A stretch of 64,000 nucleotides of DNA, taken from assembly GCA_963836075.1 (NCBI GenBank), contig CAWIIB010000009.1:1312001-1376000 (forward strand), written 5' to 3'. Every line of letters starts with the position of its first letter. Positions within the stretch are counted from its first letter, which is position 1. The notes under the pieces were generated by a model. It did not search any database. It had not been told where the DNA came from and saw only the letters and a program-made list of their open reading frames with translations. Below, in pieces: positions 2,460-17,594 of the stretch. Both the position numbers and the translations under genes were made by a program. The DNA is from an uncultured Acidobacteriota bacterium. Lineage in GTDB: Bacteria; Acidobacteriota; JAQAZP01.

Positions 2460-2488
2460 AATATAGGGATATTGGTCAACTATGTAAA
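2460..2488 (-). promoter_or_regulatory. sigma70-type promoter for the 2153/1559 genes, giving a ~300-nt leader
   Basis: Minus strand TTTACA, 17-nt spacer, TATATT, within an AT-rich patch. Confidence 0.5.
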
Positions 2489-2563
2489 GAGAAAAGGATA
2501 GGCTTCGGCGGGTTTATTAAAAAAAATTTATTCAACGAATGGGGATGAGACGCTGAAAACCGT

Positions 2564-3094
2564 CTATTTATCAGTGTCCAGCAGCTTCCTGAGCTCATTT
2601 TCCAGGGTCGCCACCTCGATTTCACGGCCCAGGGTCCGGACCTTGCGGCCCTCGGTGCCGCTGTACAAGGCACAGCCGAAATCCCAGGCGGAGGGGACCA
2701 CCAGGCCTTCCCAGTGGCGGAGAAAGAAGATCCCGCTGACGCCCACCGCCAACCCCTGGGGCATGTCGCTGGCCGTGAACGTCTGTCCACCGAACTCCCC
2801 GCCGAGGATGGCGAACTCGGTCAGCGTGCGTGCCGCCAGTTCACCCTTGTAGCGGTGGGTGACCCGGAGGGTGAAGACGGTGATCACGGCCTCCTTGAAC
2901 CCGGGGATGTCATCCCGCAGTTCGCAGCGCCGGCCGACGATCTCGCCGGCCACGATATCCTCCGACTTTTCCGTCATCCAGGCCAGGTCCACTTCCGGGG
3001 CGATGGAGGCCGGCGCCGGTGTCCCACCCGACAGGAAGAGGGCAAGCAGGGACAGAAACAGGGCGGCGCTGGCGGTCTGGCTGGCTCTGCTCAT
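2564..3094 (-). CDS. Secreted paralog of the 1638-2153 protein
   Basis: GAGGAG RBS before ATG 3094; signal peptide; VDLAWMTEKSEDIVAGEIV...YKG...ILGGEFGGQT...P..G.SGIFFL aligns by eye with 1638-2153. Confidence 0.75.
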   Translation of the reverse strand: MSRASQTASAALFLSLLALFLSGGTPAPASIAPEVDLAWMTEKSEDIVAGEIVGRRCELRDDIPGFKEAVITVFTLRVTHRYKGELAARTLTEFAILGGEFGGQTFTASDMPQGLAVGVSGIFFLRHWEGLVVPSAWDFGCALYSGTEGRKVRTLGREIEVATLENELRKLLDTDK

Positions 3095-3195
3095 CGTTAT
3101 CTCCTCGGTCCGGTGAACCTGGTTGGTACACCTGTCAATATAGGCCCCGTGGGCTTCTTTGTAAAGTATCGGCATAGTGTGGGTTCTTGATGAAG

Positions 3196-3372
3196 AGGTG
3201 ACAGCCACCTGTTTTCTGTCAATCAGCCATTGTTAAACACCACGAGAACAATCGGTGACAGTCACCAATTTCTCCCAGTGCTATGAGATCGTTGAAATAA
3301 TTGGTGACTGTCACTTGTCTTTCAAGGCGAATTATTCTGGTGGCAACGAGTAAAAAATAGGTGACTGTCACT
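3196..3372. repeat. Cluster of four GGTGAC(A/T)GTCACC-type palindromes forming nested inverted pairs (REP/REPIN-like)
   Basis: Copies at 3196-3210, 3254-3266, 3303-3314 and 3360-3371; 3255-3270 and 3299-3314 form a perfect 16-bp inverted repeat; outer pair matches 16/18. Confidence 0.8.
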
Positions 3373-3374
3373 GC

Positions 3375-4091
3375 TTACAGCAGGCGTTCACGGGCGTGGG
3401 TGCGCCTGAGGGCCAGGCCGAGGAGAGCGAAGGCCCCGCCCAGCACCAGCATGCGGTTGATCACCGCGATGCGGATGAATTCTTCGTAGGGCAGGTCGCG
3501 GGCCAGTTCCTGGATGTTGATGAAGGGATAGATGATCGACTCGTTCCAGCCGCCCTGGGTGAAGAAGACCAGGAAGAGGACAATGCTGGACAGCAGCGCC
3601 CCGCCGTTGGTGGAGCGGGTGACGATGGAGAAGAGAACCGTCATGTTGCCGAAAAAAAGCGCCGGGACCATGCTGTTCAACAGCACCTGGAGAAAGGGGA
3701 AGTCGGTGATGGCGACATAGGTCAGCACGGCCAGCATCAACTGGAGAACGAAGATGGCGATGTAGACGGTCAGTGCCTTGAGCAGCCAGACCCGGTAGCG
3801 CGATCGGGAGATGGCGAACATCACCTCGATGGTCCCGGTTTCACGCTCCTGGAGCACCAGTTGCATGCCCAGCAGGATGGCCAGGAAGACGCCGGGGACG
3901 GCCAGGATCATGTTCAGCACGTCCGTCGGCCCGTAGGGCTCATTGTCGCCAAAGGCGTTCATCAGCCAGATGATGACGAAGTAGACCAGTCCGCCCACCA
4001 GCAGGAACCAGTAGCGGGTGGAGAAGGTCACCTTGAGGCAGAGCCGGAAGAGCAGCAGCCACGACCCGATTCTTCCACGCATCTTTGCCAT
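3375..4091 (-). CDS. ABC-2 type transporter permease
   Basis: About six TM helices; QERETGTIEVMFAISRSRYRVWLLK matches the ABC-2 ExExGT..L...P.SR......K coupling motif; start reassigned to MAKMRG. Confidence 0.85.
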   Translation of the reverse strand: MAKMRGRIGSWLLLFRLCLKVTFSTRYWFLLVGGLVYFVIIWLMNAFGDNEPYGPTDVLNMILAVPGVFLAILLGMQLVLQERETGTIEVMFAISRSRYRVWLLKALTVYIAIFVLQLMLAVLTYVAITDFPFLQVLLNSMVPALFFGNMTVLFSIVTRSTNGGALLSSIVLFLVFFTQGGWNESIIYPFINIQELARDLPYEEFIRIAVINRMLVLGGAFALLGLALRRTHARERLL

Positions 4092-4120
4092 CGCACGTTT
4101 CTCTCTTTCTTCCCCCGTCA

Positions 4121-4194
4121 GGTCGGGCCGTGTTGCTCCTGAGCGACGTCGGAGGTCCGCCGACCGGAGCGAAGAGCAATATGGCCTGACCCCC
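4121..4194. repeat. Imperfect intergenic inverted repeat (GGGGTCAGGCC-type, REP-like)
   Basis: Arms 4121-4138 and 4174-4191 match 15/18; occupies the only gap inside the transporter operon. Confidence 0.55.
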
Positions 4195-7100
4195 TTACAC
4201 CGGCGCGGTTCCGCCGCGCAGGTAGAGATAGGCGTCCTCGAGATTCGGCTCCGCGTCTTCCGCGGCCAGGCCTTCCGGCGGGCCGTCGGCCAGGAAACGC
4301 AGCCGGATACGGTCAAAGCCCTCGCCGATGTGGTTGACCACCTTCAGCCGTTTGGACAGTTCGGGCAGTCGCTGCTCTTCAGTCACCGCCTCGAAGACCT
4401 TGCCCCGGGTGCGGTCGATCATTTCCTCGACGGTGCCGTCAAAGACCACCCGGCCCTTGTCGATCACCGCCACCCGGTTGCAGGTGCCGGAGATGTCCTC
4501 CACGATGTGGGTGGAGAAGATGACGATCCGCTCCTTGGCCAGCTCGGCCAGCAGGTTGCGGAACCGGATCCGTTCCTTGGGGTCGAGGCCGGCGGTGGGC
4601 TCGTCCACCACGATGATCCGCGGCAGGTGCAGCAGCGCGGTGGCGATCCCCACCCGCTGCTTCATCCCCCCGGAGTAGCCCTTCAGTTTCTCGTCCTTCC
4701 GTTCGAAGAGGGCCACCCGCTTCAGCACGCCGCTGACCAGTTCTTCCCGCTCCTCGCGGTCGTAGATCTCGTTGAGCAGCGCGTAGTAGTTGAGCAGTTC
4801 CCAGGCAGTGAAGTTCTCGTAGACCCCGAAGTTCTGCGGCAGGTAGCCCACCAGGCTCTGAACCGCGTCACGGTGCTCCCGGGGGTCGCGGCCGTTGATC
4901 GCCACCGTGCCCCGGCTCTGCTCGTAGATGTTGCAGATCACCCGCATCAGGGTGGTCTTGCCCGCGCCGTTGGGCCCCAGCAGACCGAACATCCCGGCGC
5001 CGATGTCCAGGGACAGCCCGCGCAGCGCCGCCACCCGCTCCTTCTCGTGACCCACCCGTGGAATGACACTGACCAGTCGCCGCCAGGTGCGGGCCAGCCG
5101 CTTGAAGATGTTGCCGCCCCGGCCCCTGGTGTTCGTTTCGCCGCTCCGCAGTTGGCGGCCACTGCTCAGGGCCATGGCCGCCAGGCCGAGGATGGCGGTG
5201 AGGGTGAGGGTGAAGCCGTAGTGCATCTGGCAGGCCACGTGGGCCTGGACCAGGGCCAGGGTTGCCAGCGCAAGGCCGAAGACCAGGTTCAGCCAGCGGG
5301 TTTTCGAGAAGGGGATCGGTACCCCGGGCGCCGGTTCCCCACCCCGCCGCAGCCGCCACAACGCGGTGATGGTGACGATGAAATCGCGGACGAAATACCA
5401 GGTCACTCCGATGAAGACAAAGAGCCAGAACCGGTTCTCGAAGTAGAGCAGGAGGTAGAAGAGCAGGGCCAGCAGGGGGATCTTCCAGATCAGGTTGACC
5501 GCCAGCCGGCGCCTCGTTTCCATGGGCATGCCGCGCTGCCGGGCGTGCTTCAGCCAGCGACCGTACTGCTTCCAGCCGCGGAGGAAGGGGCCGTCCTCAC
5601 CGTAGACTTTCTTCAGCTCCCGCACCGCGATGTCCAGTGGCTGGTCTGCACCAAAGATCTCCCGCCGCTCTTTCCCCCGGGCCAGCCAGAGGCCAAAACG
5701 GACCAGGCCCAGGCCGGCAAACCAGATCGGCAGAAGGAAGATGATCCGCCAGACCTCGGAGTCGATCCAGCCCAACTTGAAGTAGAGTGCCCAGATCACC
5801 ACGCCGGCCCCCAGGGTGCCGGCCAGCGCCCAGGGCAGGCCCAGAGTCTCGCGTATCCAGCGGCCGATGAAACGGAAGGAGAGAAAGCCCATGGGGATCA
5901 GCAGCAGGGTGCCGATGGTGGAGGTGGCCATGCCGCCGATCACCGCGATGGCGAAGGGCGGCCAGATCTCGTTCTCGCCGCCCATGCGCATGGCCAGCGG
6001 CAGCATGCCGGCGATGGTGGTGGTGGCGGTCATGACCACCGGCCGGAAGCGGGCCCGGCCCGAAGCGATGATCGCCCGTTCGGGGCGGAAACCCCGTTTG
6101 CGCACCAGGTGCCGGGCGTAATCGATGAGCAGGATGCCGTTGTTCACCACCATGCCCAGCAGCACCAGCAGGGCGAGAAAGACCAGCGGCCCGATGCCCA
6201 CCCCGGTGAGCGCCAGCAGGATCAGCACCCCGATCATCGCCATGGGGATGGTGAAGAGGATCAGCAGCGGGTGGGCGAACGACTCGAAGGAGGCGGCGAG
6301 GATCATGTAGACCAGGATCAGCGCCACGTAGAGCATGAACTTCCAGACGTTCTCCTCCTCGTCTTCCCGCTCGGCGGTGAGGGTGTAGCCCCGGGGCAGG
6401 GGGATGGAGAGCAGCAGGTCGTCCACCGCGGAGCGCAGTTCATCCAGCCGGGTCTGAGTGCCCAGGACCTCATCCTCATAGCCGTAGTAGACACGGATGC
6501 GGTGGGTGCCCTGGTGGCGTTTGAGGCTGGGCAGTCCGGCTTCCTGTTTGAAATCCATCAGCTCGGTGACCCGGACGAATGAGCCGTTGGGCGTGGGGAT
6601 GGAGAGGTCGCGCAGGTCGCGGAAGCTCCAATCACCTTCCTCGCCCAGGCGAACCTGGATCTGCATCTCGTTGTCCTGCCGGTCGCGGTAGGGGTAGGTG
6701 ACCTGGTCCCCTTCCCGGCGGGCCATCCAGAGCAGGCCCATCACCTGCTGCATGGAGAGGCCCCAGGCAGAGAGGTCCTGGTAGCGGGCCTCCAACCGCA
6801 CCTCGGGGGTGACGTCGTCCACGTCCATGCGAATGGTGCGGTCATCCACTCCTTCGATCTGTTCCAGCCGGTATTTCACCTCGTTGGCCAGGTCCACCAG
6901 CCGGGGCATCTCCTCGCCGGTGAGCACCACCGTCTCCACGGCGCGGGCCAGGCCCAGCGCCGCCGCGCCCCCCTCTTCTTCGTCGCCGCCGCCGGCGCTC
7001 TGGAACTGCGAGCGGTCGAACAGGATCGTCGCCCCGCTGACCTCCTCGGTGCGGTCCTTCAGTTTGTTGCGGATCGCACCCAGTGAATCGTCGGACGTCC

Positions 7101-8961
7101 GTTCGTCTTTCGGCAGCAGCTCCACGGTGATAAAGGCCTCGCCCTCGCGGATGGTGGAGCGGGTCATCTTGCGGTCGGGCAGGTCGAGGGTCATGGCCTC
7201 CACCTGGGCGGTGACCGCTTCGGTGGACTCCAGGTCGGCCCCCTCGGGCATCTCCAGCTTCATTTCGATCCGGCTGTCCGGCGGCTGGCTGCTGCCGTAG
7301 AGGTAGAGGATCACCGGCGTGGTGATCAGCACCGTGAGCATCAGCACGGCGAAGAACATGACCGTGGTCAGGACCTGGTGCCGGGAGCACTGTTTGAGCA
7401 GCAGGGTGTAGATCTGCAGGATGCGCTGGGGCCGTTTGCGGTCCGCGGCGGGATCGAAACCCTGGCCGGACATTGTCCGCTCCCCGCGCCGGCCCAGGCG
7501 GCTGGCCAGCATGGGGATCAGGGTCACCGCCACCAGCAGCGAGATCAGCAGGGGGAAGATGATCGCCAGGGCAAAGTCGTTGTACAGCTCGGTGAACTCG
7601 GTCTTGACCCAGAGCAGCGGGGTGAAGACCACCACCGTGGTCACCGTACCGACGATGATCGCCTTGAACACCTCGGAACTGCCGGTGACCGCCGCTACCA
7701 TCCGGCTGAGCCCCCGCTCGCGGTGCCGGGTGATGCTCTCCAGCACCACGATGGCGTTGTCCACCAAGAGACCGATGGAAAGGGTCAGGCCGATGAGGGT
7801 CAGCACGTCGATGGCCAGGCCGGCGGCGGCCATCAGGTTGAAGGTCAGCAGCAGGGAGACCGGGATGGCCAGTGAGACCACCACCACCGGGCCGGGCCGC
7901 TTGAGGAAGATCAACAGCACCAGCAGGGCCAGCAGGCCGCCGCTCAGCGCCAGCTTCTTCACCCGGTTGATGTCCTTTTCGATCAACTCCGCGGCGTCGA
8001 AGGCGGTGGTGATCCGCACCCCCGGCGCGGCCAGCTCGTCGTTGATCTCCGCGATCTCCTGGCGCAGCAGCTGGGCCACCTTGATCAGGTTCGACTGCTC
8101 GTCCTTCTGGATCAGGATGCTCACCGTGGGGTGCCCGTCCACCCGCGACATCTGGGTCTGGCGGTCCGGTGCCTGCTCCACCCGGGCCACGTCGCGGAGG
8201 AAGACCATTCCGGCCCCGGTCGTCAGCGGCAGGTCGCGGATCTCCTGCAGCGAGGTGAAGCGGCCCTCCACCATGGCGAACTGCCGGCGGCCGTCCACCT
8301 CCACCTCGCCCACGAACTCCCGCCGCTGGTGGTAGCCGTTCAGAGTGGCCAGCACCTGGGTGGGCATGATGCCGTAGGAGCGCAGGCGGTCCTCGTCGAG
8401 AGTCACCTGCACCGCCAGCTGCCGGCCGCCAAAGACCTGAACGCTGACCACCCCGTTCACCGACTCCAGCTGGGGCCGGATCTTCTCCTCGGCCAGCCGG
8501 CGGACAAAGGGCAGCCCCCCCGGGCCGGCCACGTTGAGCTGCATGACGAAGTTGGAGAAGGCCGAAGTGTCGAAGCGTTCGACGCGCAGCGTCGCCGTTT
8601 CAGGCAGCAGGCCCACAAGCCCGTTGGCCTTCTGTTCCAGCTTGAGATAGGCGTAGTTGAGGTCGGTGCCCAGCTTGTACGAGACGGTGATCATCCCGTA
8701 GTTCTGGTTGGAGACGGCCTCGATTTCCTCGATGTCCTCGAGGGTGGAGATCTCGGCCTCCAGCCGCTCGATCAGGTCCTCCTCCACCTTCTCCGGCGAG
8801 GCGCCGGGGTAGCCGGCGATGACGAACATCTTGGGGTAGATGTAGTTGGGGATCAGCTGCACCGGCAGGGTGGTGTAGCTGATCACGCCCAGCACCCCCA
8901 GGGCGATGAAGAACATCACCGTGGTCACCGGGCGCTTGATGGCGAGGGTGGGGAGGTTCAC
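4195..8961 (-). CDS. RND (AcrB-family) permease fused to extra TM segments and a C-terminal ABC ATPase domain, 1588 aa
   Basis: RND motifs KRPV, [35 protein letters not shown] Walker A [9 protein letters not shown], Q-loop YLPQ, signature YSGGMKQR, Walker B [8 protein letters not shown], H-loop STH; one uninterrupted ORF; GTGA overlap with the upstream stop. Confidence 0.92.
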   Translation of the reverse strand: [1588 protein letters not shown]

Positions 8962-11900
8962 GCGTCCTTCCCCCTGCCGGCGGGCCGCAGGCGGTCGATC
9001 AGGTCATAGGCCACCGGCAGCACCACCAGGGTCAGAATGGTGGAGGTGACCAGCCCGCCGATGATGGCGTAGGCCAGCGGCGCCCGCAGTTCGGCCCCCT
9101 CGCCAAAGCCCAGGGAGAGGGGCAGCAGGGCGAGGATGGTGGTGGAACTGGTCATCAGGATCGGCCGCAGCCGGGCCTGTCCGGCGGCCAGCAGTGCCTC
9201 CTTGCGCTTCATCCCCCGGCGGCGCAATGTGTTGACGAAGTCGATGAGGATGATCCCGTCGTTCACGGCGATGCCGGCGAGGATGATGATGCCGATGAAG
9301 GCCATCACCGACAGCGGCAGGCCCGCGAAATAGAACAAGGCCGCCACGCCCACCCCGGCCATGGGGATGGTGAGCATGATGGTGAAGGGATGGACCAGCG
9401 ACTCGAACTGCGAGGCCATCACCATGTAGACCAGCAGGAGGGCCAGCAGCATGGCGAAGCGCAGCTTGTCGAACGACTCCTGGCGTCGCTGTTCTTCGCC
9501 GCCCACCAGGAAGCGGTAGCCCCGCGGCACGTTCATCCCCTCGAGGCGTGAGCCGATTTCGCCGCTCACCTCACTCAGCGTCACCCCTTCGGCCAGGTCG
9601 GCCTGGACCAGGGCCACCCGCGACTGGCCGCGGCGCAGGATCTCCCGCGGGCCGGTCTCGCTCTCCACCCGGGCGATGTCCTTGAGCAGGATCCGGGTGC
9701 CGGTGGGGTTCTCGATTTCCAGGTTGAGCAGCTGGTCGAGGTTCATCATCGGGTGGCGGATGGCGATGTCGCGGTCCTCGTCCTCGGCGCGGAAAATGGA
9801 GATCTCCTCACCGTAGAGCTTTCGCCTGACCAGCCGGGTGATGGTGGCCACGTCGAGACCCAGGCTGGCCGCGGTCATGCGGTCGATGTGAATCGCCAGT
9901 TCCTCGCGGCCGCCCTGGAAGCTGGTGCGCACGTTGTAGATGCCCTTGCCCCCGGCTTTCATCTCCTCCAGCTGGGCCGCCACCCCGTCACTGATCTCCC
10001 GCAGCCGGTCCACGTCCTGACCCCGCACCTCGATGCTCACCGGAGCGTCACCGGAGCCGATGGTCTGCTGCAGGGCGGTCTCGCCGAGATTGTATGTGGT
10101 CTCCAGGCCCGGGACGTCGCGCAGCACCGGGTCGATGGCGCCGATGATGGCCGAGGTGTGCAGGTCGCGTTCGGCGAAAGGCTTGAGCGAGACCAGGACC
10201 AGCGAGGTATTCTCGTCCCACACCTCTTCGGTGAGCAGCTCGTCCTCCAGCCGCCGTTTGCCGATGTCGCTGTAGACCGCGGTGATCTCTTCGCCGAAAT
10301 TCTCCAGCAACAGGTCCTCCACAAAGCCGGACACCGCGGCGGTGCGCTCCACCGGGGTCCCCTCGGGGAGCACCAGCCGGATGCCGAACTCGCCCTGGTC
10401 GGCCCGGGGCAGGAACTCGGTGCCGCTGCGCCTGAAGGCCTCGGCGGCAAAGAGGCCGAGGACCAGGGTGATGACCACCACGATCAGCTTGTGGTTCAGG
10501 GCCCAGACCAGCAGGCCGTTGTACGCCCTGCTGCGCACCACGTGCTCCGAAGCCGGGCCGGTCGCCGCAGTTCGTTTCTGTTTCAGCATCCGCGAGGCGA
10601 GCATGGGGATCAGCACCATGGCCACCACCAGCGAGCAGAGCAGCGAGATGCTCACCGTGAAGGCCTGTTCCTTGAGCAGCTCGCCGGTGATGTCGCCGAT
10701 GAAGACCACCGGCAGGAAAACCACGCAGGTGGTCAGGGTGGAGGCGAAGATGGCGCCGCCCACTTCCGAGGCACCGTCGATGGCCGCTTCGATCTTTCCC
10801 TTGCCCGCCTGGAGGTGGCGATAGATGTTCTCGATCACCACGATGGCATTGTCCACCAGCAGGCCCACCCCCAGGGCCAGGCCGCCGAGGGTCATGATGT
10901 TGAGGCTCAACCCGGCGAAATACATCAGCACGAAGGTGGCCACGATGGAGAGGGGGATGGCCAGGGCGATGACCAGGGTGGCGCCGAAGCTGCGCAGGAA
11001 GAGAAAGAGGATCACGATGGCCAGCAGCGCGCCGATCAGCGCCTGCTCCTCCACCTCGCGGATCGATCCGGTGATAAAACGGGCCTGGTCCCGGACCACC
11101 TGGAAGCGCACGCCGGGAAGCGAGCGGGACAGCTGGTCCAGGCTGCGGCGCACGTCGTCGCTCACCATCACCGTATTGCTGCCCCCCTCCTTGTGTACCG
11201 AGAGGCCTACCCCCTCGGTGCCGTTGATCCGCACCAGGTTGCGCACCTCCTTGTCCCCGTAGTAGACCCGGGCCACCCGGGAGAGGGGCACCGGTACCTT
11301 CAGCGGGTCGAAGGCGGTATTCTGGGAGACGAGGTCCGAGGGGGCCTTGCTGCGGTCGAGGTAGGCCACGGTGAGGGCGCGGAGCTGGTCCAGGTCGGAA
11401 AACCGGCCAACCCCCTTGATGACGTAGATCTTGCCCTCCTCCTCCAGCGTGCCGCCGGAGGTGTCCATATTGGCCTCCCTGACCCGGGAGGCCACGTCGT
11501 CCACGGTGATGCCGAATGAGTCCAGCAGGAACTCGTCGGTCTCGACGATCACTTCCCGCTCGCGGCCGCCGGAAATGCGCACCGCGGCCACACCGCGCAG
11601 CCGCTCCAGGGCCGGGCGGACATAGTCCTCGGCCAGCCGCCGCATTTCGTCCAGGTCGGCGCTGCTCTCGTCTTCGGCCGAGGGGAACATCCCCACCCGC
11701 AGCACCGGTGCGGCCTGGGGGTCGAAACGGCGGATGCTCAGGTTGTCCACTTCGCGGTCCGCCTGGAGGTAGCCGATATTCTTCTGCACCTCCAGCAGGG
11801 CAAAGTCCATGTCGCTGTCCCAGTAGAACTCCACGGTGACCATGATGCTGCCCACCCGGGAGACAGAGGAGACACGGGAGACGCCGCTGATGGTGCTCAG

Positions 11901-12113
11901 CTGGGACTCCAGCTGCTCGCCGAAGACGTCCTCCATCTCCCGCGGCGGCCGGTTCCCCGACTCGAGCACCACCACCACCTTGGGGCTGGAGATGTCGGGC
12001 AGCAGGTCGATGCCCAGCTTGTCCAGGGAGATGTAGCCGAGGAGCAGCACGCCGGTGAAGATCATCACCACGGTGACCGGGAAACGGACCGCGAGGTTGG
12101 CTATGGCTTTCAT
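8958..12113 (-). CDS. RND (AcrB/AcrD/AcrF family) permease
   Basis: 1051 aa; GLLVDNAIVVIENI, GIAVNDGIILIDF, RLRPILMT, FESLVHP; TGATG coupling to the MFP gene. Confidence 0.93.
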   Translation of the reverse strand: MKAIANLAVRFPVTVVMIFTGVLLLGYISLDKLGIDLLPDISSPKVVVVLESGNRPPREMEDVFGEQLESQLSTISGVSRVSSVSRVGSIMVTVEFYWDSDMDFALLEVQKNIGYLQADREVDNLSIRRFDPQAAPVLRVGMFPSAEDESSADLDEMRRLAEDYVRPALERLRGVAAVRISGGREREVIVETDEFLLDSFGITVDDVASRVREANMDTSGGTLEEEGKIYVIKGVGRFSDLDQLRALTVAYLDRSKAPSDLVSQNTAFDPLKVPVPLSRVARVYYGDKEVRNLVRINGTEGVGLSVHKEGGSNTVMVSDDVRRSLDQLSRSLPGVRFQVVRDQARFITGSIREVEEQALIGALLAIVILFLFLRSFGATLVIALAIPLSIVATFVLMYFAGLSLNIMTLGGLALGVGLLVDNAIVVIENIYRHLQAGKGKIEAAIDGASEVGGAIFASTLTTCVVFLPVVFIGDITGELLKEQAFTVSISLLCSLVVAMVLIPMLASRMLKQKRTAATGPASEHVVRSRAYNGLLVWALNHKLIVVVITLVLGLFAAEAFRRSGTEFLPRADQGEFGIRLVLPEGTPVERTAAVSGFVEDLLLENFGEEITAVYSDIGKRRLEDELLTEEVWDENTSLVLVSLKPFAERDLHTSAIIGAIDPVLRDVPGLETTYNLGETALQQTIGSGDAPVSIEVRGQDVDRLREISDGVAAQLEEMKAGGKGIYNVRTSFQGGREELAIHIDRMTAASLGLDVATITRLVRRKLYGEEISIFRAEDEDRDIAIRHPMMNLDQLLNLEIENPTGTRILLKDIARVESETGPREILRRGQSRVALVQADLAEGVTLSEVSGEIGSRLEGMNVPRGYRFLVGGEEQRRQESFDKLRFAMLLALLLVYMVMASQFESLVHPFTIMLTIPMAGVGVAALFYFAGLPLSVMAFIGIIILAGIAVNDGIILIDFVNTLRRRGMKRKEALLAAGQARLRPILMTSSTTILALLPLSLGFGEGAELRAPLAYAIIGGLVTSTILTLVVLPVAYDLIDRLRPAGRGKDA

Positions 12114-13195
12114 CAGGAACTGACCTTCACCGGTGTCTTGTCTTTCAGGGTCTCGTAGCCCTGGACCACCACGCGCTCGCCGGCCTCGATGCCGGAGAGG
12201 ATCTCCACCCGCTCCTCATCCTCCAGACCGGTGACCACCTCGCGCATCTCGGCCTTCTGCCGCGAGACGACAAAGACCGACGGCCGGTTGTTGCGCACCA
12301 CCACCGCGTGCCGCGGCACGACCAGGGCGTCCTCCCGGGAGCGGGTGACGATGTCGGCCTTGACGAACATGCCCGGCCGCACCAGCCCCTCGCGGTTCGA
12401 AAGCAGTACCTCGACGCGGAAGGTCCGTGACTGAGCCTGGATGGTGGGGCTGATGTAGCGCACCACGCCCTCGAAGACCTGGTCAGGGTAGGCGTAGTTG
12501 GAAACCCGGACCGCCATCCCCTCCTTGACCCTGGCGATGTCGCCGCCGGGCAGCTCCAGGTCGGCCAGCACCCGGGAGAAGTCCATCACCTCGGCCAGTT
12601 CTTCCCCGGCGGTGACCTTGGCCCCGTCCACCTCGCGGGTCAGCCAGGTCAACCGGCCGCTGATCGGGGCGAGGATCCGGGTCTGTTCCTCGACGATCAG
12701 GGTGTTTTCGTAGTTGTAGCGGGCGGTGGCCAGCGCGCTCTCGTAGTTCCTCATCTCCTGTTCGGAGACGAAGCCTTCCTCGAAGAGCCGTTGATAGCGC
12801 TGGTAATCATTCTCCGCTTTCTGCAACTCGGCGCGGCGGGCGTCGATGCCGCTCTTCTTGTTCACCCGCGTCTCTTCACTGTCCAGCAGGGCGATGACCT
12901 GGCCCTGTTTCACCGGGTCGCCCTCGATAAGCCGCCGGCCGTTGCCGCCCAGCCGGCCCAGGTTCAGATATCCGGTCATCGGCGCGTCCAGCTTGACCTC
13001 CTGGATCGCCCGCACCGAGCCGGTGGTGGTGAGGTGTTCCTCGATGCCGGCGCGGCCGGCTTCCTCCACCCGCACCGGGATTTTCACCTCCAGGCCGGCC
13101 TGGGATTCCGGTTCGCCGCACCCTGCAGTGAGGAGGAGCAGCGGAATGAGGCAGAGCGCCGCGACAATTGAGACCTGTGGGCATCTGGTGGTCAT
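12113..13195 (-). CDS. RND periplasmic adaptor (membrane fusion lipoprotein)
   Basis: Lipobox LTAGC; EGDPVKQGQVIA, ILAPISG, RPGMFV, SGIEAGERVVVQG; ATGA overlap with the upstream stop fixes the start at 13195. Confidence 0.9.
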   Translation of the reverse strand: MTTRCPQVSIVAALCLIPLLLLTAGCGEPESQAGLEVKIPVRVEEAGRAGIEEHLTTTGSVRAIQEVKLDAPMTGYLNLGRLGGNGRRLIEGDPVKQGQVIALLDSEETRVNKKSGIDARRAELQKAENDYQRYQRLFEEGFVSEQEMRNYESALATARYNYENTLIVEEQTRILAPISGRLTWLTREVDGAKVTAGEELAEVMDFSRVLADLELPGGDIARVKEGMAVRVSNYAYPDQVFEGVVRYISPTIQAQSRTFRVEVLLSNREGLVRPGMFVKADIVTRSREDALVVPRHAVVVRNNRPSVFVVSRQKAEMREVVTGLEDEERVEILSGIEAGERVVVQGYETLKDKTPVKVSS

Positions 13196-16100
13196 TCGGT
13201 TGCTCCTTCCTTGTCCTCGTCCGCGAAGGTGAATTTCACCGCGTCGGCGATCACCGCCCCGTCGGCCTGGTCGCTGAGGGTGACCACCGCCTCGTTGTCC
13301 GGAGAGAAATAGAACGTGCCGAGGCTGTTCCAGCCGATCTCCGCGACGGTGGCGTCGAGGCTCACCGTCTCCGGTCCGTCCTCGTGTTCGATGGTGTAGC
13401 TGTAGTTCGTACCCAGCTTCCGGTCGTCGGAGCGGGCGCGGAGGTTGCTCCCCTCCACGCCGATGAAGGCAAAGACCTCGTAGCGCCCCCGGCGGGGCAG
13501 TTCGGCGACCCAGCGGGCCGAAAACTCGCCCTCGCCGCCGCCCTTCATTTTCATGGTGTGGTTGTACAGGCCGTAGGCCTCGTCGCGGGTCCAGTTGACC
13601 CATTCGTCGGGGATGCCCCTGAGGTAGTCTTCCAGCTGGGGCCCGCCCTCCTCATCGTCGTCGTCACCCCTTGATGACCGCCAGCGCAGCAGCGAGCTGC
13701 CGGTTTCGCCGGCCAGGCTGAAGCCCGGGTCGAGATCATCGACGATCACCGTGAGCTCGTCCTCCGATTCACCGGTCTCCAGCACCGCCACCCGTTCGAA
13801 CGGTTCGGCCTGCACCGGCTCTTCGGGCAGCTTGAAATCCTTGGTCAGCGGTTCCTTGTTCCGGGCCAGGATGGGGTCCACCACCAGCCGTACCGGCTCG
13901 TCAGGCACCACCAGCGCCACCTCCACGGTCTGCAGGCCGTCGAGGCGCACCCGCCGTTCCACTTCGTCACCGCGGGTTTCAAAGTAGAGGATGGCGAACC
14001 CGGAAGCGTTCTCCTCGTTGGCCAGCTCCACCCGCACCTGGTAGAGCGGCGCTTCGCCGTCGGTGGCGATACGGTAGGCTTCGCTGTTCTTGATCCGGTA
14101 GCCCGGCAGGTCGGTGCTGTGGGTCCACTGCTGGAAGAGCCAATCCACGTCCTGGTCGGTCACTTCGGCGGCCAGCACGCGCAGGTCCTCCATGGTGTAC
14201 TGGCCGTACTGGTGGCGCTGCACCAGGCCGTTGACCAGCGCACGGAAGGCCTCCTCGCCGAGATACTCGCGCAGGGTGACCACGAAACCGCGGCCCTTGT
14301 GTCCCATCACATTGTAGAACAGCTCGGGGTCTTCTTCCGGCTCCATGTCGGCCAGTGGCGTGGCCTTGATCGACTTGTAGACCTGGTCGATGTTCACCGT
14401 GGCGTCGTAGAACGCCTCCTGCCAGCTGGAGTTGCCGGTGAAGCGGGCCTGGATCCCCTGGCCCAGCACCTGCTGGAAGTTGGTCATCATGTAGACCGAG
14501 GCAAAGGGCCGGGTCCCGGTGACTGTTTCCTTGAGATAGTTGTCGAGGCAGTAGCCGGCAACAGGGTAGAGCGGGCCGCTGGGGTCGAGACGGAAGCCCC
14601 AGAAGTTGGGCATGGCGTTCTGCAGCAGGCTGCCGCTGACCACATCGAGGTCGAAGAAGAGCTTGAGCATGTCGACCTTGATCTGGGCGGCGTCCACCTC
14701 CTCGTCGGCCTCTTCCGCCTGCTCGGTGCGAGTTTCGAAGGCCCGCTCGAAGTTGGCCGAGAAGAAGCCGGCCTCCTTGAGCATCACCACCCCCGGCTGG
14801 ATCAGCGGGTTGGGGCTGTCCCAGCCCTCCGAGTAGGCCCGCATGGCGCCGGGGACCTCCACCAGGCTCAGCGCCGGGTAGGGGTAGTCCAGACCGGTAC
14901 GTTCCTGGATGTCGGAGAGCTTCTTTTCCAGCTCTTCGTGGATCCTGTCCCGGGCGTCGTTGAAGAATTCGATGTTGGCCGCGTGGCTTTCGCTGAAATA
15001 GAAGGCCAGCTGCATCGGCCCCACTTCGCCCTTGATCACCTGGTACTCGCCGCTGTTCACCGAGAGGCCGGGCACCGGCACATCGGAGCGGTAGGTGAAG
15101 ATCGCGTTCCCGCCCGAGTCATCCCGGGCCGTCATGGCGCCCTGGGTCACCGCCTGCTGTCCGTCCGGGACGGTGATCCGCAGGCCGGCGGTGGCGAAGT
15201 TGTCCGGGCGCTTGTCCGGATAGGTGTAGCCGTGGTCGACGTTGGGCGAGGGATACCACCTCGCCTGGGGCAGCAGCACCGAGTAGCGCGAACCGATGTA
15301 GGACGGCAGGTAGCCGAGAATGGCCACGTTGTTGCGCGCCTGGCCCTTCAGTTCGTTGATTTCGTTCTCGCTGTTGAGGAAGATGGTATTCAGCGCCAAA
15401 GTTCCGCCATAGGCCACGGTCACCTCGGTTTCGCTGCCCGGCGTCAGGGCCGGGATGTTCACCACCAGGGTGGTGTCCCCCCGCTGGAATTCCAGCGCGC
15501 TCCCCCCGGCGCCGGTGACCGACTCCACGTCGAGGCCGCTGTTCAGCACAAAGGTCAGCTTCTCCTGGGATTCGGCCCCGTCGTTGCGCACGGTCATCCG
15601 GGCGGTGGCCGTGAGCCGGCTGCCGCGGGCCAGGTCGAGGTCCATGTCGTAGTGGGTCACCCGGGTCAGCGGGTTCTCCAGCAGCGCCTGCTGCTCGGCG
15701 CGGGCCGCCTCGCGCAGGGTGTAGTCGTTGTGTCCCGACCAGAGGCCGTAGCCGACGTAGCAGAGGGCCAGGATGGCCGAGACGGCGGCGGTGCCCAGCA
15801 CCGGCCGCGAAACCCGGTCGTCCTGCTTGAGCCGCGGGTAGAGCATGGCGGTGAGGGCCAGCAGCAGCAGGGTCAGGGCGATGATATATCCCCGCTGGAA
15901 CAGCAGCAGCCCGAAATCGGTGAAACCGATCAGGTCGGAGTGGAAGGTGGTCAGCGAATAGCCGCTGAAATCAACCAGCGGCACAAACTGGGCCTTGATC
16001 CAGCGGCCGAGGCTGATGAAGACCACCAGGTCGATGATCACGTAGGCGTGGGCGATGATGATCGCCGCCACCCGGCTTTTGGTCACCAGGGTGAGGAAAA

Positions 16101-16611
16101 AGACCAGGGCGACGATAAAGGCCAGCCCGGGAAGAATGGTGACGAAGAGGTGCATCAGGTAGGGGCCCAGACGGAAGGGCAGGTGGAAGAGCGGGATGAA
16201 CCGCAGGCAGACCGAGACCAGGGTGAGGATCAGGGCCGTGGCAAAGGTGGGGACCAGCGCCCCGAGGAATTTGCCCCAGACCAGCCCGAAGGTGCTCAGC
16301 GGGCGCGAGTGCACCACGCCGTCCACCCGGCATTTGCTGTCCTTGCTCAGGAAGTCATAGCAGAACCAGATCAGCAGCACGGCGAATAGCGTGATGAACT
16401 GGGAGTAGACGATCTGCAGCACCAGCCCGGCGGAGAGCAGCCCGATGGTGCCCGAGTAGCCGGAGAAGAAGTTGTGCAGGAAGGCGTAATAGATGTTGAT
16501 GATCACCAGGAAGAGCAGCCCGAGGCAGACCAGGATCCAGAACTTCCAGGTGCGGCGGAGGAGCCGGCTCTCGTACTTGGCCAGGCCCATGATTCCGGCA
16601 AGGTCAATCAT
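13192..16611 (-). CDS. ABC-2 permease fused to an M1-aminopeptidase-like domain lacking HExxH and a golvesin/xanthan-lyase-like C-terminal domain
   Basis: N-terminal TMD (SRPLSTFGLVWGKFLG); M1-like segments HYDMDL, FVLNSGL, WYP, YPYPALSLVEVP, KG...LREYLGEEAF; C-terminal VDD.DPGF...GRYEV...GWNSLGTFYF...VIADAVKF; GGAGGAG RBS before ATG 16611. Confidence 0.8.
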   Translation of the reverse strand: MIDLAGIMGLAKYESRLLRRTWKFWILVCLGLLFLVIINIYYAFLHNFFSGYSGTIGLLSAGLVLQIVYSQFITLFAVLLIWFCYDFLSKDSKCRVDGVVHSRPLSTFGLVWGKFLGALVPTFATALILTLVSVCLRFIPLFHLPFRLGPYLMHLFVTILPGLAFIVALVFFLTLVTKSRVAAIIIAHAYVIIDLVVFISLGRWIKAQFVPLVDFSGYSLTTFHSDLIGFTDFGLLLFQRGYIIALTLLLLALTAMLYPRLKQDDRVSRPVLGTAAVSAILALCYVGYGLWSGHNDYTLREAARAEQQALLENPLTRVTHYDMDLDLARGSRLTATARMTVRNDGAESQEKLTFVLNSGLDVESVTGAGGSALEFQRGDTTLVVNIPALTPGSETEVTVAYGGTLALNTIFLNSENEINELKGQARNNVAILGYLPSYIGSRYSVLLPQARWYPSPNVDHGYTYPDKRPDNFATAGLRITVPDGQQAVTQGAMTARDDSGGNAIFTYRSDVPVPGLSVNSGEYQVIKGEVGPMQLAFYFSESHAANIEFFNDARDRIHEELEKKLSDIQERTGLDYPYPALSLVEVPGAMRAYSEGWDSPNPLIQPGVVMLKEAGFFSANFERAFETRTEQAEEADEEVDAAQIKVDMLKLFFDLDVVSGSLLQNAMPNFWGFRLDPSGPLYPVAGYCLDNYLKETVTGTRPFASVYMMTNFQQVLGQGIQARFTGNSSWQEAFYDATVNIDQVYKSIKATPLADMEPEEDPELFYNVMGHKGRGFVVTLREYLGEEAFRALVNGLVQRHQYGQYTMEDLRVLAAEVTDQDVDWLFQQWTHSTDLPGYRIKNSEAYRIATDGEAPLYQVRVELANEENASGFAILYFETRGDEVERRVRLDGLQTVEVALVVPDEPVRLVVDPILARNKEPLTKDFKLPEEPVQAEPFERVAVLETGESEDELTVIVDDLDPGFSLAGETGSSLLRWRSSRGDDDDEEGGPQLEDYLRGIPDEWVNWTRDEAYGLYNHTMKMKGGGEGEFSARWVAELPRRGRYEVFAFIGVEGSNLRARSDDRKLGTNYSYTIEHEDGPETVSLDATVAEIGWNSLGTFYFSPDNEAVVTLSDQADGAVIADAVKFTFADEDKEGATE

Positions 16612-17491
16612 TGTTCTCCTCCTCCAGGCCACCCATGAAGTTGATGTAGGCGTCCTCCAGGTTGGGGTTCACCGGTTTCAGCTCCAGGCCGTTGGCCGAC
16701 CCCTCGCCCACCAGCCGCAGGTGCAGCCGGTCGCCCCGCGGGGCGGTGCTGATCACGCTGAAGCGCCTCTTGATTTCCGACAGGTCTTTTTCCTCGGCCA
16801 CCGTCTCCCAGGCTTTGCCCTCGGCTTTGGCGGTCAGTTCCTGGGGTGAGCCGTGATAGAGCACCTTGCCCTTGTCCAGGATCACCAGGTTTTCACAGGT
16901 GCTGGAAATGTCGCCGACGATGTGGGTGGAGAGGATGATAACGATATCCTTGCCGATGTCCTGCAGCAGGCCGCGGAAGCGGATCCGCTCCTCGGGGTCG
17001 AGACCCACGGTGGGTTCGTCGACGATGAGCAGTTTCGGCTCGCTGATCAGCGCCTGGGCGATGCCCAGCCGCCGCAGCATGCCGCCGGAGAGGGCCTTTA
17101 CCTTGCGCCGGGCCGCGTCGGCCAGCCCCACTTTCTCCAGCATGTCGTCCACCCGCTTGTCCCGGCCGGCCTTGGGCATGCCGTTGAGGCGGGCAGTGTA
17201 GTCGAGGAACTCCTGGGCCTTCATCTTGGGGTAGACCCCGAACTCCTGGGGCAGGTAGCCCAGCCGCGAGCGGATCTTCCGCCGGTCCTTCGACACGTCG
17301 AGGCCATCGATGGTCACCTCGCCGGAGGTGGGTTCCAGCAGGGTGGCCAGGATTTTTATCATGGTGCTCTTGCCGGCCCCGTTGGGGCCCAGCAGGCCGA
17401 ACATGCCGGCGGGAATCTCCACGTTGACCCCGCTGAGCGCCGTCACGCCGCCCTTGTAGGTTTTGGTCAGGTCCCGGATAGTGATAGCCAT
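16604..17491 (-). CDS. ABC transporter ATP-binding protein (ABC-2/DrrA-like)
   Basis: GPNGAGKST, YLPQ, LSGGM, IVDEPT, STH; C-terminal PNLEDAY. Confidence 0.95.
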   Translation of the reverse strand: MAITIRDLTKTYKGGVTALSGVNVEIPAGMFGLLGPNGAGKSTMIKILATLLEPTSGEVTIDGLDVSKDRRKIRSRLGYLPQEFGVYPKMKAQEFLDYTARLNGMPKAGRDKRVDDMLEKVGLADAARRKVKALSGGMLRRLGIAQALISEPKLLIVDEPTVGLDPEERIRFRGLLQDIGKDIVIILSTHIVGDISSTCENLVILDKGKVLYHGSPQELTAKAEGKAWETVAEEKDLSEIKRRFSVISTAPRGDRLHLRLVGEGSANGLELKPVNPNLEDAYINFMGGLEEENND

Positions 17492-17594
17492 TTATTGAGT
17501 CCTCTCTCTGGATCTTCCCCCGAATCGGGCAGGGAAGTCCTTTTATTTACGTAACCGTGCAGTTTCGGGTTTCATCAAATGAGGACACAATTCC

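What the first reader, a model, noticed from the sequence alone, without database searches (positions are those of the whole stretch)
3375..17491. Candidate undescribed RND-ABC hybrid export machine in one operon
Seen: six co-oriented genes, the first five overlapping at their start/stop codons. Order is ABC ATPase, ABC-2 permease::M1-like::golvesin-like, MFP, RND-1, RND-2::ABC ATPase, ABC-2 permease. The parts add up to a heterodimeric ABC transporter (two TMDs, two paralogous NBDs) with one NBD covalently tethered to one of two RND subunits. Established: RND pumps such as AcrB and MdtBC are proton-driven and ABC-2 exporters are ATP-driven; I know of no characterised system that fuses them. 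Inference: a supercomplex in which ATP hydrolysis powers or gates an RND heterotrimer, or in which an ABC exporter hands a peptide, lipoprotein or glycan cargo to RND/MFP for passage across the envelope. No TolC is encoded in the operon.
Basis: partly seen in the sequence, partly recalled or inferred. Interest (0 to 1): 0.92.

Follow-up and report, generated by a model that had tools for sequence, protein, structure and literature searches.

The report
Conserved RND pump fused to ABC ATPase
A six-gene operon joins a proton-driven RND efflux pump to an ATP-driven ABC-2 transporter by a real gene fusion that recurs, with the same neighbours, in several bacterial phyla; no paper found here describes it.

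Summary
Window 3375-17491 (minus strand) holds six genes. They encode an ABC ATPase; an ABC-2 permease fused to an M1-like and a golvesin-like domain; a lipoprotein MFP; RND-1; RND-2 fused to an ABC ATPase (1588 aa); and a second ABC-2 permease. The first five overlap by 1-8 nt.

The fusion is not an artefact. RND-2 and the ATPase share one reading frame in 57 of 57 loci, including cultured Bacteroidota. The gene order is kept in 42 of 42 loci with enough flank. Contigs from two other metagenome studies bridge the junction without gaps.

New anatomy:
- Six extra predicted transmembrane helices link RND-2 to the ATPase.
- Four of them are inserted between the ATPase's first strand (invariant K1118, Y1120) and its Walker A motif.
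- The M1-like domain has the aminopeptidase fold but no zinc motif (0 of 51).
- 40 of 42 related loci carry a TolC-like gene inside the cassette. The window does not.

Best reading: an ABC-2 heterodimer tethered to an RND heteromer, working as one export machine. How the two are coupled, and what is exported, remain inferred. Six literature searches found no description.

The parts
16604..17491 (-). g1, NBD-A: free-standing ABC ATPase, 295 aa
   Evidence: Pfam ABC_tran 119 bits. Nearest NCBIfam models are DrrA (218 bits, cut-off 312) and GldA (212 bits, cut-off 403), both below cut-off. The Walker A lysine, Q-loop Q, SGG signature, Walker B D-E and H-loop H are each kept in 30 of 30 cassette homologues aligned.
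13192..16611 (-). g2, TMD-A: ABC-2 permease with seven predicted membrane helices, fused to a periplasmic pseudo-M1 aminopeptidase and a golvesin-like (CBM84-like) beta-sandwich. 1139 aa from the ATG at 16611.
   Evidence: Pfam hits. Seven hydrophobic segments. AF2 model with pLDDT 76.5 and pTM 0.70. Same ORF for the three parts in 38 of 41 loci.
13711..15666 (-). M1-aminopeptidase-like periplasmic region of g2 (residues about 316-967), without the zinc site
   Evidence: Foldseek matches IRAP, ERAP1, F3 and EryP over about 640-650 columns at E about 1e-19 and 12-16% identity. HExxH is found in 0 of 51 homologues and GxMEN in 0 of 51. No histidine is among the invariant columns of A3.
13225..13602 (-). 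Golvesin_C-like beta-sandwich at the C-terminus of g2 (residues about 1004-1129)
   Evidence: Pfam Golvesin_C 68.9 bits. The profile matches the C-terminal module (residues 922-1038) of Paenibacillus xanthan lyase 6f2p at E 5.6e-10.
12113..13195 (-). g3: membrane fusion (periplasmic adaptor) lipoprotein, 360 aa from the ATG at 13195
   Evidence: HlyD_D23 86.8 bits. TIGR01730 RND_mfp 214.8 bits, above its 94.9 cut-off. A hydrophobic signal ends in a cysteine. ATGA overlap with g2.
8958..12113 (-). g4, RND-1: unfused RND permease, 1051 aa
   Evidence: ACR_tran 774.7 bits over profile positions 1-1020 of 1021. Cassette partners form a pure clade of 50 rows, support 0.961.
5872..8961 (-). g5 residues 1-1030, RND-2: the RND permease part of the fusion
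   Evidence: ACR_tran 613 bits. The fused RNDs form a pure clade, support 0.998.
5062..5871 (-). g5 residues 1031-1300: six-helix membrane linker (TM13-18) carrying the displaced first strand of the ATPase
   Evidence: Six hydrophobic segments at 1040-58, 1073-91, 1153-71, 1178-96, 1226-44 and 1249-67. AF2 helices match them. The linker profile finds 156 representative clusters, and the full-length ones hold it at about residues 1020-1285. It is not related to TMD-B (hhalign probability 1%).
5602..5631 (-). g5 residues 1111-1120: first beta-strand and putative A-loop of NBD-B, about 200 residues ahead of Walker A
   Evidence: AF2 strand 111-120 of the model, with block pLDDT 92. K1118 and Y1120 are the only invariant columns among 56 linkers. 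The same L-x-K-x-Y pattern sits at the N-terminus of g1.
4195..5061 (-). g5 residues 1301-1588, NBD-B: the ABC ATPase core with a C-terminal extra domain
   Evidence: ABC_tran 94.9 bits. Walker A, Q1376, S1430-G-G, D1453-E1454 and H1485 are invariant in 53 sequences. The nearest folds are TM_1403 (4yer) and NosF (7osf_B, 7o0y_B).
3375..4091 (-). g6, TMD-B: small ABC-2 permease with six predicted helices, 238 aa from the ATG at 4091
   Evidence: ABC2_membrane_2 29.7 bits, above its 27.2 cut-off. Six hydrophobic segments. A homologue follows the fusion in 41 of 42 loci.

Best explanation
The operon encodes one composite export machine built from two transporter classes. A heterodimeric ABC-2 transporter is made of NBD-A with TMD-A and NBD-B with TMD-B. 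TMD-A carries a periplasmic pseudo-aminopeptidase and a carbohydrate-binding-like domain. This transporter is held on an RND pump because NBD-B is part of the same polypeptide as RND-2, joined by six extra membrane helices. RND-2 assembles with its paralogue RND-1 and the adaptor lipoprotein g3. An outer-membrane channel is encoded inside the cassette in most lineages and elsewhere in this genome.

Inferred working model: the ABC part uses ATP to move or extract an amphipathic or glycan-bearing cargo. It holds that cargo on its periplasmic domain beside the RND porter domain. The RND, adaptor and channel then expel it. If the RND trimer is two RND-1 to one RND-2, as in MdtB2C, each trimer would carry exactly one ABC transporter.

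Shown here: the parts, the fusion, its conservation, intact ATPase motifs, the loss of the peptidase zinc motif, and the predicted topology. Inferred: physical assembly, stoichiometry, hand-over and cargo.
For: - Domains and gene junctions.
- The fusion is real. All of the 120 best hits to residues 1030-1588 carry PF00873 and PF00005 at about 1560-1620 aa, some from cultured Marinifilum.
- RND-2 and NBD-B lie in one ORF in 57 of 57 cases, 56 loci plus the window.
- Contigs of two other studies (X7 record 18, 5087-5962; X8 record 25, 4957-5967) cover the end of RND-2, the linker and Walker A with 0 gaps.
- The cassette is inherited as a unit. Of 42 loci with at least 9.5 kb upstream and 0.8 kb downstream, 42 have the M1-like part, MFP, RND-1 and RND-2::NBD-B in the same order. 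Golvesin is found in 41, TMD-B in 41, NBD-A in 38 and TMD-A in 38. The last two are lower bounds.
- No other downstream gene is shared by more than 5 loci.
- One MAG (L051) has the same parts in a different order, with a short linker.
- Fused RNDs and their partners form separate pure clades, support 0.998 and 0.961.
- Both ATPases keep all catalytic motifs.
- Topology by hydropathy and the positive-inside pattern puts the M1-like and golvesin domains in the periplasm and both ATPases in the cytoplasm.
- The NBD fold is nearest to TM_1403 and NosF. NosF belongs to an ABC-2 machine that works with a periplasmic partner; that role is recalled, not read here.
- Complex prediction of g5 residues 1031-1588 with TMD-B gave weak support. 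The score was 0.57 and the best of 3 controls 0.00. The mark was reached by 58 of 80 solved complexes and 2 of 110 mismatched pairs, but at 0.60 or under by only 7 of those 80 and by both mismatches that passed. The runs agree in at least 68% of contacts and the partner's pLDDT is at least 71. Solved NBD-TMD complexes exist, so the pass may come from likeness.
- An MdtB2C1 heterotrimer is the precedent for two RND paralogues in one pump (passage in PMC7015380).
Against: - No experiment and no RNA data bear on it.
- The only interaction test gave weak support and covers a textbook type of pair.
- Hand-over, stoichiometry and cargo rest on inference alone.
- g2's ABC-2 match is below Pfam's cut-off (23.2 against 27.2 bits).
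- The window's own operon has no outer-membrane channel gene.
- Both RNDs lack AcrB's D408 and K940, so even their proton coupling is assumed, not shown.
Pairing of the displaced strand with the ATPase sheet is therefore inferred from its pLDDT and its motif, not measured.
- The family is patchy: 22 of 301 genomes in the window's phylum sample and 4 of 401 in a Bacteroidota sample, one of those being the query's own genome.
Confidence: 0.5

Rival explanations
1. ATP-gated or ATP-driven RND. Nucleotide binding and hydrolysis at NBD-B, dimerising with NBD-A, are transmitted through the six-helix linker to TM12 of RND-2. They gate or drive the conformational cycle of the RND trimer. The ABC-2 permeases serve mainly as the stator, not as a separate transport path.
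For: - The first strand of NBD-B carries the invariant K1118 and Y1120, placed where ABC ATPases have the adenine-stacking aromatic residue (recalled knowledge).
- That strand is flanked by membrane helices on both sides, so nucleotide binding could pull directly on the membrane module.
- NBD-B is the most conserved part of the cassette, at 51-58% identity against 31-37% for RND-2.
- AcrB D408 is N in 46 of 52 fused RNDs and 47 of 51 partners. K940 is N in 52 of 52 and 47 of 51.
Against: - The same D-N / N-N variant occurs in unfused RNDs of the same genome: C9_1842762 and C1_1213378, with a near-variant D-S / N-N in C1_1216569. It is therefore not specific to the fusion.
- D407, R971 and T978 are kept in all sequences.
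- One variant (L051) joins the ATPase to RND-2 by a short linker with no clear membrane helix. The membrane insertion is therefore not essential to the fusion.
- Two complete permeases are conserved, which fits a working ABC transporter.
Confidence: 0.22
2. Co-localisation only. The ABC-2 system and the RND pump are two independent transporters of one pathway or stress response. The fusion merely fixes their expression ratio or their place in the membrane, without any mechanical or substrate coupling.
For: - NBD-A plus TMD-A::M1 modules also occur without any RND nearby (L058, L071, L074).
- A permease-M1 fusion family was already catalogued on its own as TC 3.A.1.145 (passage in PMC3924187).
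- A Comamonas MAG has MFP and RND next to unfused ABC-2 and M1 genes.
Against: - The fusion and the full gene set are kept across phyla, including a rearranged locus.
- Only one of the two RND paralogues is ever fused. The fused ones form one clade, which points to a fixed structural role.
- No free-standing linker-plus-ATPase form was found. The short hits look like fragments.
Confidence: 0.2
3. Artefact. The 1588-aa ORF arises from an assembly or indel error that joins an RND gene to an ABC gene.
For: This assembly has frame breaks elsewhere. rpoB aligns in two frames. The TolC-like gene at 45079-46439 is in two overlapping frames. The second cassette copy on contig C3 is broken many times.
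Against: 57 of 57 loci from other genomes have the same single ORF. The 120 best database hits all have the same two-domain make-up. Contigs from other studies cross the junction without gaps.
Confidence: 0.01

Closest known systems
MdtABC / MuxABC-OpmB (heteromeric RND pumps; MdtB2C1)
   Same: Two adjacent paralogous RND permease genes follow one adaptor gene. The best equivalog matches of g4 and g5 include MdtC and MdtB. The heterotrimer precedent is a passage in PMC7015380.
   Different: Scores are far below the MdtB and MdtC cut-offs (430 against 1774 and 414 against 1584 for g4). One paralogue carries six extra helices and an ABC ATPase. Two ABC-2 permeases and a second ATPase are part of the operon. 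D408 and K940 of the AcrB relay are replaced.
MacAB-TolC (ABC-driven tripartite pump)
   Same: An ABC ATPase, a permease with a large periplasmic domain, an MFP-type adaptor and, in most related loci, a TolC-like channel are encoded together. The adaptor g3 matches MacA weakly (72 bits, cut-off 342).
   Different: MacB is an N-terminal ATPase fused to a four-helix FtsX-type permease, as recalled and as described in a passage of PMC8277102. Here the permeases are of the ABC-2 type, and a full RND pair is present as well.
NosDFY (ABC-2 machine with a periplasmic partner)
   Same: NBD-B's fold is among those nearest to NosF (7osf_B, 7o0y_B). The permeases match the family ABC2_membrane_2. A large periplasmic domain is attached to the permease.
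   Different: There is no NosD-like beta-helix and no link to N2O reductase. The periplasmic part is an M1-like fold plus a golvesin-like module fused to the permease. The NosDFY mechanism is recalled, not read here.
TC 3.A.1.145, ABC-2 permease fused to an M1 peptidase domain (Myxococcus xanthus Q1D520)
   Same: An ABC-2 permease has a C-terminal Peptidase_M1 domain and is functionally uncharacterised (passage in PMC3924187).
   Different: Q1D520 is described with 13 membrane segments and as a zinc-dependent peptidase domain. g2 has seven predicted helices, no zinc motif (0 of 51), an added golvesin-like module, and sits in an RND cassette. Homology of g2 to Q1D520 was not tested here.
AcrAB-TolC (canonical proton-driven RND pump)
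   Same: Full-length ACR_tran fold with 12 helices. D407, R971 and T978 are kept. An adaptor lipoprotein is present.
   Different: D408 and K940 are replaced by N. The pump has two paralogues. One is fused to an ABC ATPase. The AcrB equivalog scores are 221 and 228 bits against a cut-off of 2150.

Membership tests
RND permease, AcrB/HAE-1 type | Full-length ACR_tran domain (12 membrane helices and two large periplasmic loops) | tested here: met
   g4 774.7 bits over profile positions 1-1020 of 1021. g5 613 bits over 3-1020 of 1021.
RND permease, AcrB/HAE-1 type | Canonical proton relay D407, D408, K940, R971, T978 (AcrB numbering) | tested here: not met
   D407, R971 and T978 are kept in 51 of 51 RND-1 and 52 of 52 RND-2. 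D408 is N in 47 of 51 and 46 of 52. K940 is N in 47 of 51 and 52 of 52. The same variant occurs in unfused RNDs of this genome.
RND permease, AcrB/HAE-1 type | Score above the NCBIfam subfamily or equivalog cut-off | tested here: not met
   The best model is RND_permease_2, at 669 bits (g4) and 541 bits (g5) against a cut-off of 1250.
Tripartite RND pump | Adaptor (MFP) gene in the operon | tested here: met
   g3 scores 214.8 bits on TIGR01730, cut-off 94.9. An MFP is present in 42 of 42 loci.
Tripartite RND pump | Outer-membrane factor (OEP/TolC) gene in the operon | tested here: not met
   There is none among g1-g6. An OEP gene lies between the g2 and g3 homologues in 40 of 42 related loci; the two exceptions are Latescibacterota. 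The genome has 29 OEP matches, one pair in the window at 45079-46439.
Heteromeric RND (MdtBC-like) | Two paralogous RND genes co-inherited with one adaptor | tested here: met
   RND-1 and RND-2 are both present in 42 of 42 loci and form separate pure clades.
Heteromeric RND (MdtBC-like) | 2:1 heterotrimer | not testable with these tools
   The size limit of complex prediction (1000 residues) excludes even one RND pair.
ABC transporter ATPase | Walker A, Q-loop, LSGGQ-type signature, Walker B D-E and H-loop | tested here: met
   NBD-B: invariant in 53 sequences. NBD-A: 30 of 30 for each key residue.
ABC-2 permease (Pfam ABC2_membrane_2) | Score above Pfam's gathering cut-off | tested here: inconclusive
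   g6 scores 29.7 bits against 27.2 and passes. g2 scores 23.2 bits against 27.2 and falls below. Neither matches any NCBIfam permease model.
M1 zinc aminopeptidase | HExxH plus downstream E zinc site, and the GxMEN exopeptidase motif | tested here: not met
   HExxH is in 0 of 51 and GxMEN in 0 of 51. The fold is nevertheless M1-like, and Pfam Peptidase_M1 matches only profile positions 130-218.
MacB-type (type VII) ABC tripartite pump | ATPase fused to a four-helix FtsX-type permease | tested here: not met
   No FtsX-family hit. The permeases hit ABC-2 families.
GldA gliding-motility ABC ATPase | Score above the TIGR03522 equivalog cut-off | tested here: not met
   g1 scores 211.9 bits and g5 174.3 bits against a cut-off of 402.6.

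The most novel reading that the evidence does not exclude
This would be a natural chimera of a primary and a secondary active transporter that runs on two energy sources. ATP binding at an ATPase whose adenine-contacting strand is stitched into the membrane on both sides would be mechanically coupled, through a six-helix module, to one protomer of a 2:1 RND heterotrimer. ATP would then gate or drive the RND cycle, or load the RND directly with cargo taken from the cytoplasm or inner leaflet. No such coupling between ABC and RND machinery has been described in the literature I searched.
Probability: 0.3. Interest if true: 0.92.

Novelty: new variant of a known kind. Interest (0 to 1): 0.78.

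Why it matters
RND pumps and ABC exporters are treated as separate solutions to envelope export, one driven by the proton gradient and one by ATP. A fusion that is conserved across phyla shows that some bacteria build them into one assembly. That raises a testable question: how do two energy sources and two transport paths cooperate?

The family occurs in cultured strains, among them Prolixibacter bellariivorans, Marivirga tractuosa and M. sericea, Draconibacterium mangrovi, Maribellus maritimus and Marinifilum species. Genetics and cryo-EM are therefore feasible.

The ATPase with four membrane helices inserted between its first strand and Walker A is an unusual variant of a very well-studied fold.

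Public annotation currently calls these proteins plain 'efflux RND transporter permease subunit', which hides the architecture.

Tried and rejected
- Loss of the proton relay as evidence for an ATP drive: rejected as specific evidence. Unfused RNDs of the same genome share the D-N / N-N pattern.
- The linker as a cryptic ABC-2 permease: rejected. hhalign of the linker profile against TMD-B gave probability 1%.
- Free-standing linker-plus-ATPase proteins: the 'shorter' search with the linker found 2 proteins. Both carry ACR_tran pieces; one is on a 1310-nt contig and one is from contig C3 of this genome. In the profile search, short hits mostly start or end at the protein's end and look like fragments, but I could not see their contigs.
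- Conserved neighbours beyond the cassette: none is shared by more than 5 loci.
- Promoter and terminator scan: 4 promoter-like sites against 1.5 +/- 1.2 expected, and 11 terminator-like sites against 8.1 +/- 2.9. This does not define the operon ends.
- Protein Atlas search with the linker: no usable hit.
- Expression: no RNA holder was listed. The four runs laid were all DNA contigs.
- Literature: and a term search in the held first 300,000 characters of PMC8277102, gave no description of an RND-ABC fusion. Subscription journals are not covered. Supplements were not consulted.
- I could not read model coordinates, so no contact analysis of the displaced strand was made.
- The taxon of the window is only inferred. 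The best named RpoB relatives are Acidobacteria (Vicinamibacterales, Thermoanaerobaculia) at 63-65% identity.

Full report
OBSERVATION. Six large ORFs lie on the minus strand between 3375 and 17491. Pfam gives these assignments:
- g1: ABC_tran.
- g2: ABC2_membrane_2 (below its cut-off), the C-terminal part of Peptidase_M1, and Golvesin_C.
- g3: HlyD_D23.
- g4: ACR_tran.
- g5: ACR_tran over residues 5-1029 and ABC_tran over residues 1314-1457.
- g6: ABC2_membrane_2.

NCBIfam names g3 an RND adaptor above its cut-off. It places both RNDs nearest to RND_permease_2, MdtC and MdtB, and both ATPases nearest to DrrA and GldA, all below cut-off.

The junctions were read from the sequence. g1/g2 overlap by 8 nt, g2/g3 as ATGA, g3/g4 by 1 nt and g4/g5 as GTGA. 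A 103-nt spacer precedes the likely ATG of g6 at 4091.

IS THE FUSION REAL? A search with residues 1030-1588 of g5 returned 120 listed hits. All carry both PF00873 and PF00005, and most are 1550-1620 aa long at 39-91% identity. Source names among them include Marinifilum flexuosum and M. fragile, Latescibacter, Krumholzibacteriota, Gemmatimonadetes, Zixibacteria, KSB1 and Chlorobi.

A scan of one genome per species found 595 related stretches, of which 80 loci were kept. The full-length matches include cultured Prolixibacter bellariivorans, Draconibacterium mangrovi, Marivirga sericea and M. tractuosa, Parabacteroides massiliensis, Bacteroides sp. 224 and Maribellus maritimus. They also include MAGs labelled Calditrichaceae, Gemmatimonadaceae and Latescibacterota.

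In 57 of 57 cases (56 loci and the window), the RND-2 part and the ATPase lie in one open frame. Public sediment and salt-marsh metagenomes from 11 studies hold part of g5. Contigs of two of them cover 4957-5967 and 5087-5962, which is the end of RND-2, the linker and Walker A. They differ by 55-58 letters and have no gaps. An assembly artefact is excluded, even though this assembly has frame breaks elsewhere.

THE CASSETTE. tblastn with the ten domains of the window's genes shows the same order almost everywhere: NBD-A, TMD-A::M1-like::golvesin, MFP, RND-1, RND-2::linker::NBD-B, TMD-B.

Among the 42 loci with enough flank, the counts are as follows:
- M1-like part, MFP, RND-1 and the fusion in order: 42 of 42.
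- Golvesin: 41.
- TMD-B: 41.
- NBD-A: 38.
- TMD-A: 38.

The last two are lower bounds, because some loci are cut just upstream and the permease is weakly conserved.

In 40 of the 42 loci, a gene between the g2 and g3 homologues matches the OEP/TolC family; in L006 it scores 146.8 bits. The two exceptions are Latescibacterota, which resemble the window in this respect. The window's genome has 29 OEP matches. One gene lies in the window next to a second, ordinary MFP-RND pair.

Nothing downstream of the cassette is conserved; the most widely shared gene occurs in 5 loci. One MAG (L051) holds the same seven components in a different order, with a 1438-aa fusion. Keeping the set while shuffling the order argues for a functional unit.

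In a FastTree tree of 116 RND sequences, the fused RNDs form a pure clade of 53 rows (support 0.998; one of these rows repeats L051). Their partners form a pure clade of 50 rows (support 0.961). The tree was rooted on AcrB. Rows under 900-950 aa were left out.

The family is patchy. 22 of 301 genomes in the window's phylum sample match the linker. 4 of 401 genomes in a Bacteroidota sample do, one being the query's own genome. RpoB places the window's genome nearest to Acidobacteria at 63-65% identity.

NEW ANATOMY OF g5. After TM12 of the RND part there are six more hydrophobic segments, at 1040-58, 1073-91, 1153-71, 1178-96, 1226-44 and 1249-67. An AF2 model of residues 1001-1588 has mean pLDDT 78 and pTM 0.65, and shows matching helices.

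Between the second and third of these helices lies a beta-strand, residues 1111-1120, with block pLDDT 92. Its K1118 and Y1120 are the only invariant columns among 56 aligned linkers. The strand has the same L-x-K-x-Y pattern as the N-terminal strand of g1.

In ABC ATPases, the aromatic residue at this place stacks on the adenine ring (the A-loop) and lies about 25 residues before Walker A. This is established knowledge that I recall. Here it lies 209 residues before Walker A.

I therefore read the last four helices as an insertion into the ATPase fold, between its first and second strands. The first two helices form a hairpin joining it to the RND. Pairing of the strand with the ATPase sheet is inferred, because I could not read the model coordinates.

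The distribution of arginine and lysine fits a topology in which every loop that carries ATPase parts is cytoplasmic.

The linker profile finds 156 representative clusters in 1.84 billion proteins. In the full-length ones it sits at about residues 1020-1285. It shows no relation to TMD-B and has no Atlas neighbour. L051 lacks clear membrane helices in its short linker but keeps the strand and the fusion.

THE ABC PART. Both ATPases keep the Walker A lysine, the Q-loop, the signature, the Walker B D-E and the H-loop, so two active sites are expected. The nearest solved folds of NBD-B are TM_1403 and NosF.

g2 has seven predicted helices followed by a long stalk helix and about 830 periplasmic residues. 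Foldseek aligns about 640-650 columns of the model to M1 aminopeptidases (IRAP, ERAP1, F3, EryP) at E about 1e-19.

HExxH and GxMEN are nevertheless absent in 51 of 51 homologues, and no histidine is invariant. It is a pseudo-peptidase, probably a binding domain.

The C-terminal module matches the last domain of Paenibacillus xanthan lyase 6f2p at E 5.6e-10. Xanthan-binding CBM84 modules are reported from Paenibacillus nanensis enzymes (passage in PMC11002231). That the matched 6f2p domain is such a module is my recollection. It suggests glycan binding but does not show it.

A permease-M1 fusion family has been catalogued as TC 3.A.1.145 and is uncharacterised (passage in PMC3924187).

A complex prediction of g5 residues 1031-1588 with TMD-B gave weak support. 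The score was 0.57 and the best of 3 controls 0.00. The mark was reached by 58 of 80 solved complexes and 2 of 110 mismatches, but at 0.60 or under by only 7 of those 80 and by both mismatches that passed. The runs agree in at least 68% of contacts and the partner's pLDDT is at least 71. The pass may reflect likeness to solved NBD-TMD complexes.

THE RND PART. Aligned with E. coli AcrB, both paralogues keep D407, R971 and T978 in every sequence. D408 is N in 47 of 51 RND-1 and 46 of 52 RND-2. K940 is N in 47 of 51 and 52 of 52. In 20 of 51 RND-1 sequences, including the window's, the next residue is D.

This could suggest altered energy coupling. However, three unfused RNDs of the same genome show the same or a near-identical pattern. 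It marks a wider RND subclass and is not a property of the fusion.

MECHANISM. I commit to a composite machine. The covalent tether docks one heterodimeric ABC-2 transporter on an RND heteromer that shares the adaptor and an outer-membrane channel. The ABC part supplies or positions cargo through its periplasmic pseudo-peptidase and glycan-binding-like domain, and the RND part expels it. Only one RND paralogue is ever fused. With the MdtB2C1 precedent (passage in PMC7015380), this suggests one ABC unit per trimer.

The main rival is direct ATP gating or driving of the RND through the membrane-embedded ATPase strand. A weaker rival is mere co-localisation. None of these can be separated by sequence analysis. 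The experiments are listed under next steps.

NOVELTY. The proteins are in public databases under generic names. The permease-M1 fusion alone has a TC number. I found no paper that describes an RND-ABC fusion or this cassette. The searches were made, plus a term search in part of the main review. Subscription journals and supplements were not covered. I rate it a new variant built from known kinds, with a real chance of a new mode of energy coupling.

Noticed in passing
G000 contig C3, about 100-14400 (outside the window): There is a second whole copy of the cassette in the same gene order, at 41-96% amino-acid identity to the window's. Many frame breaks split it; RND-2 aligns in seven pieces. 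It could be a decaying paralogue, or a low-quality contig of a related strain binned into this genome (contamination estimate 4.61%).
   Followed up: partly
window 40635-46439, minus strand: An ordinary tripartite RND operon: RND (1122 aa), MFP (360 aa) and a TolC-like gene. The TolC-like gene appears in two overlapping frames (45079-46125 and 45552-46439), so it has a frameshift or an assembly indel.
   Followed up: partly
G000:C9:2605949-2609813 (L089): rpoB aligns to E. coli RpoB in two frames near its C-terminus. Its longest ORF is 1312 aa, against about 1423-1432 aa in relatives. This is another sign of indel errors in the assembly.
   Followed up: no
L051:629-15940: A variant cassette with a shuffled order: MFP, ATPase, small permease, RND-1, permease::M1 (919 aa, no golvesin match), RND-2::ATPase (1438 aa, short linker without clear membrane helices), then OEP.
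   Followed up: partly
L056:8841-21415 (Comamonas MAG); L070 looks similar: An unfused neighbourhood in Proteobacteria: MFP, RND, alpha/beta hydrolase, ABC ATPase, ABC-2 permease, a second ATPase, then a 1212-aa protein whose Peptidase_M1 match covers profile positions 3-203. It may be a relative or forerunner of the fused cassette.
   Followed up: partly
G000: C9_1842762-1846229, C1_1213378-1216491, C1_1216569-1220102: Unfused RND permeases with N (or S) at AcrB D408 and N at K940. The two on C1 are adjacent and may form another heteromeric pair. One of them is the sister of the fused clade in the small tree.
   Followed up: partly
window 4085-4195: The spacer between g5 and g6 varies. Contigs of runs X7 and X8 replace about 109 nt with about 25 other letters, so the spacer probably holds no conserved element.
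   Followed up: no
window 213-1622, minus strand: An ORF of 469 aa with Peptidase_M10 (matrixin) and PPC domains lies about 1.7 kb downstream of the operon. It is probably a secreted metalloprotease. No link to the cassette was found in other loci.
   Followed up: no
window 17500-17545, minus strand, just upstream of g1: A short GC-rich inverted repeat lies about 30 nt before the g1 start codon. It could be the terminator of the upstream gene or a regulatory hairpin.
   Followed up: no
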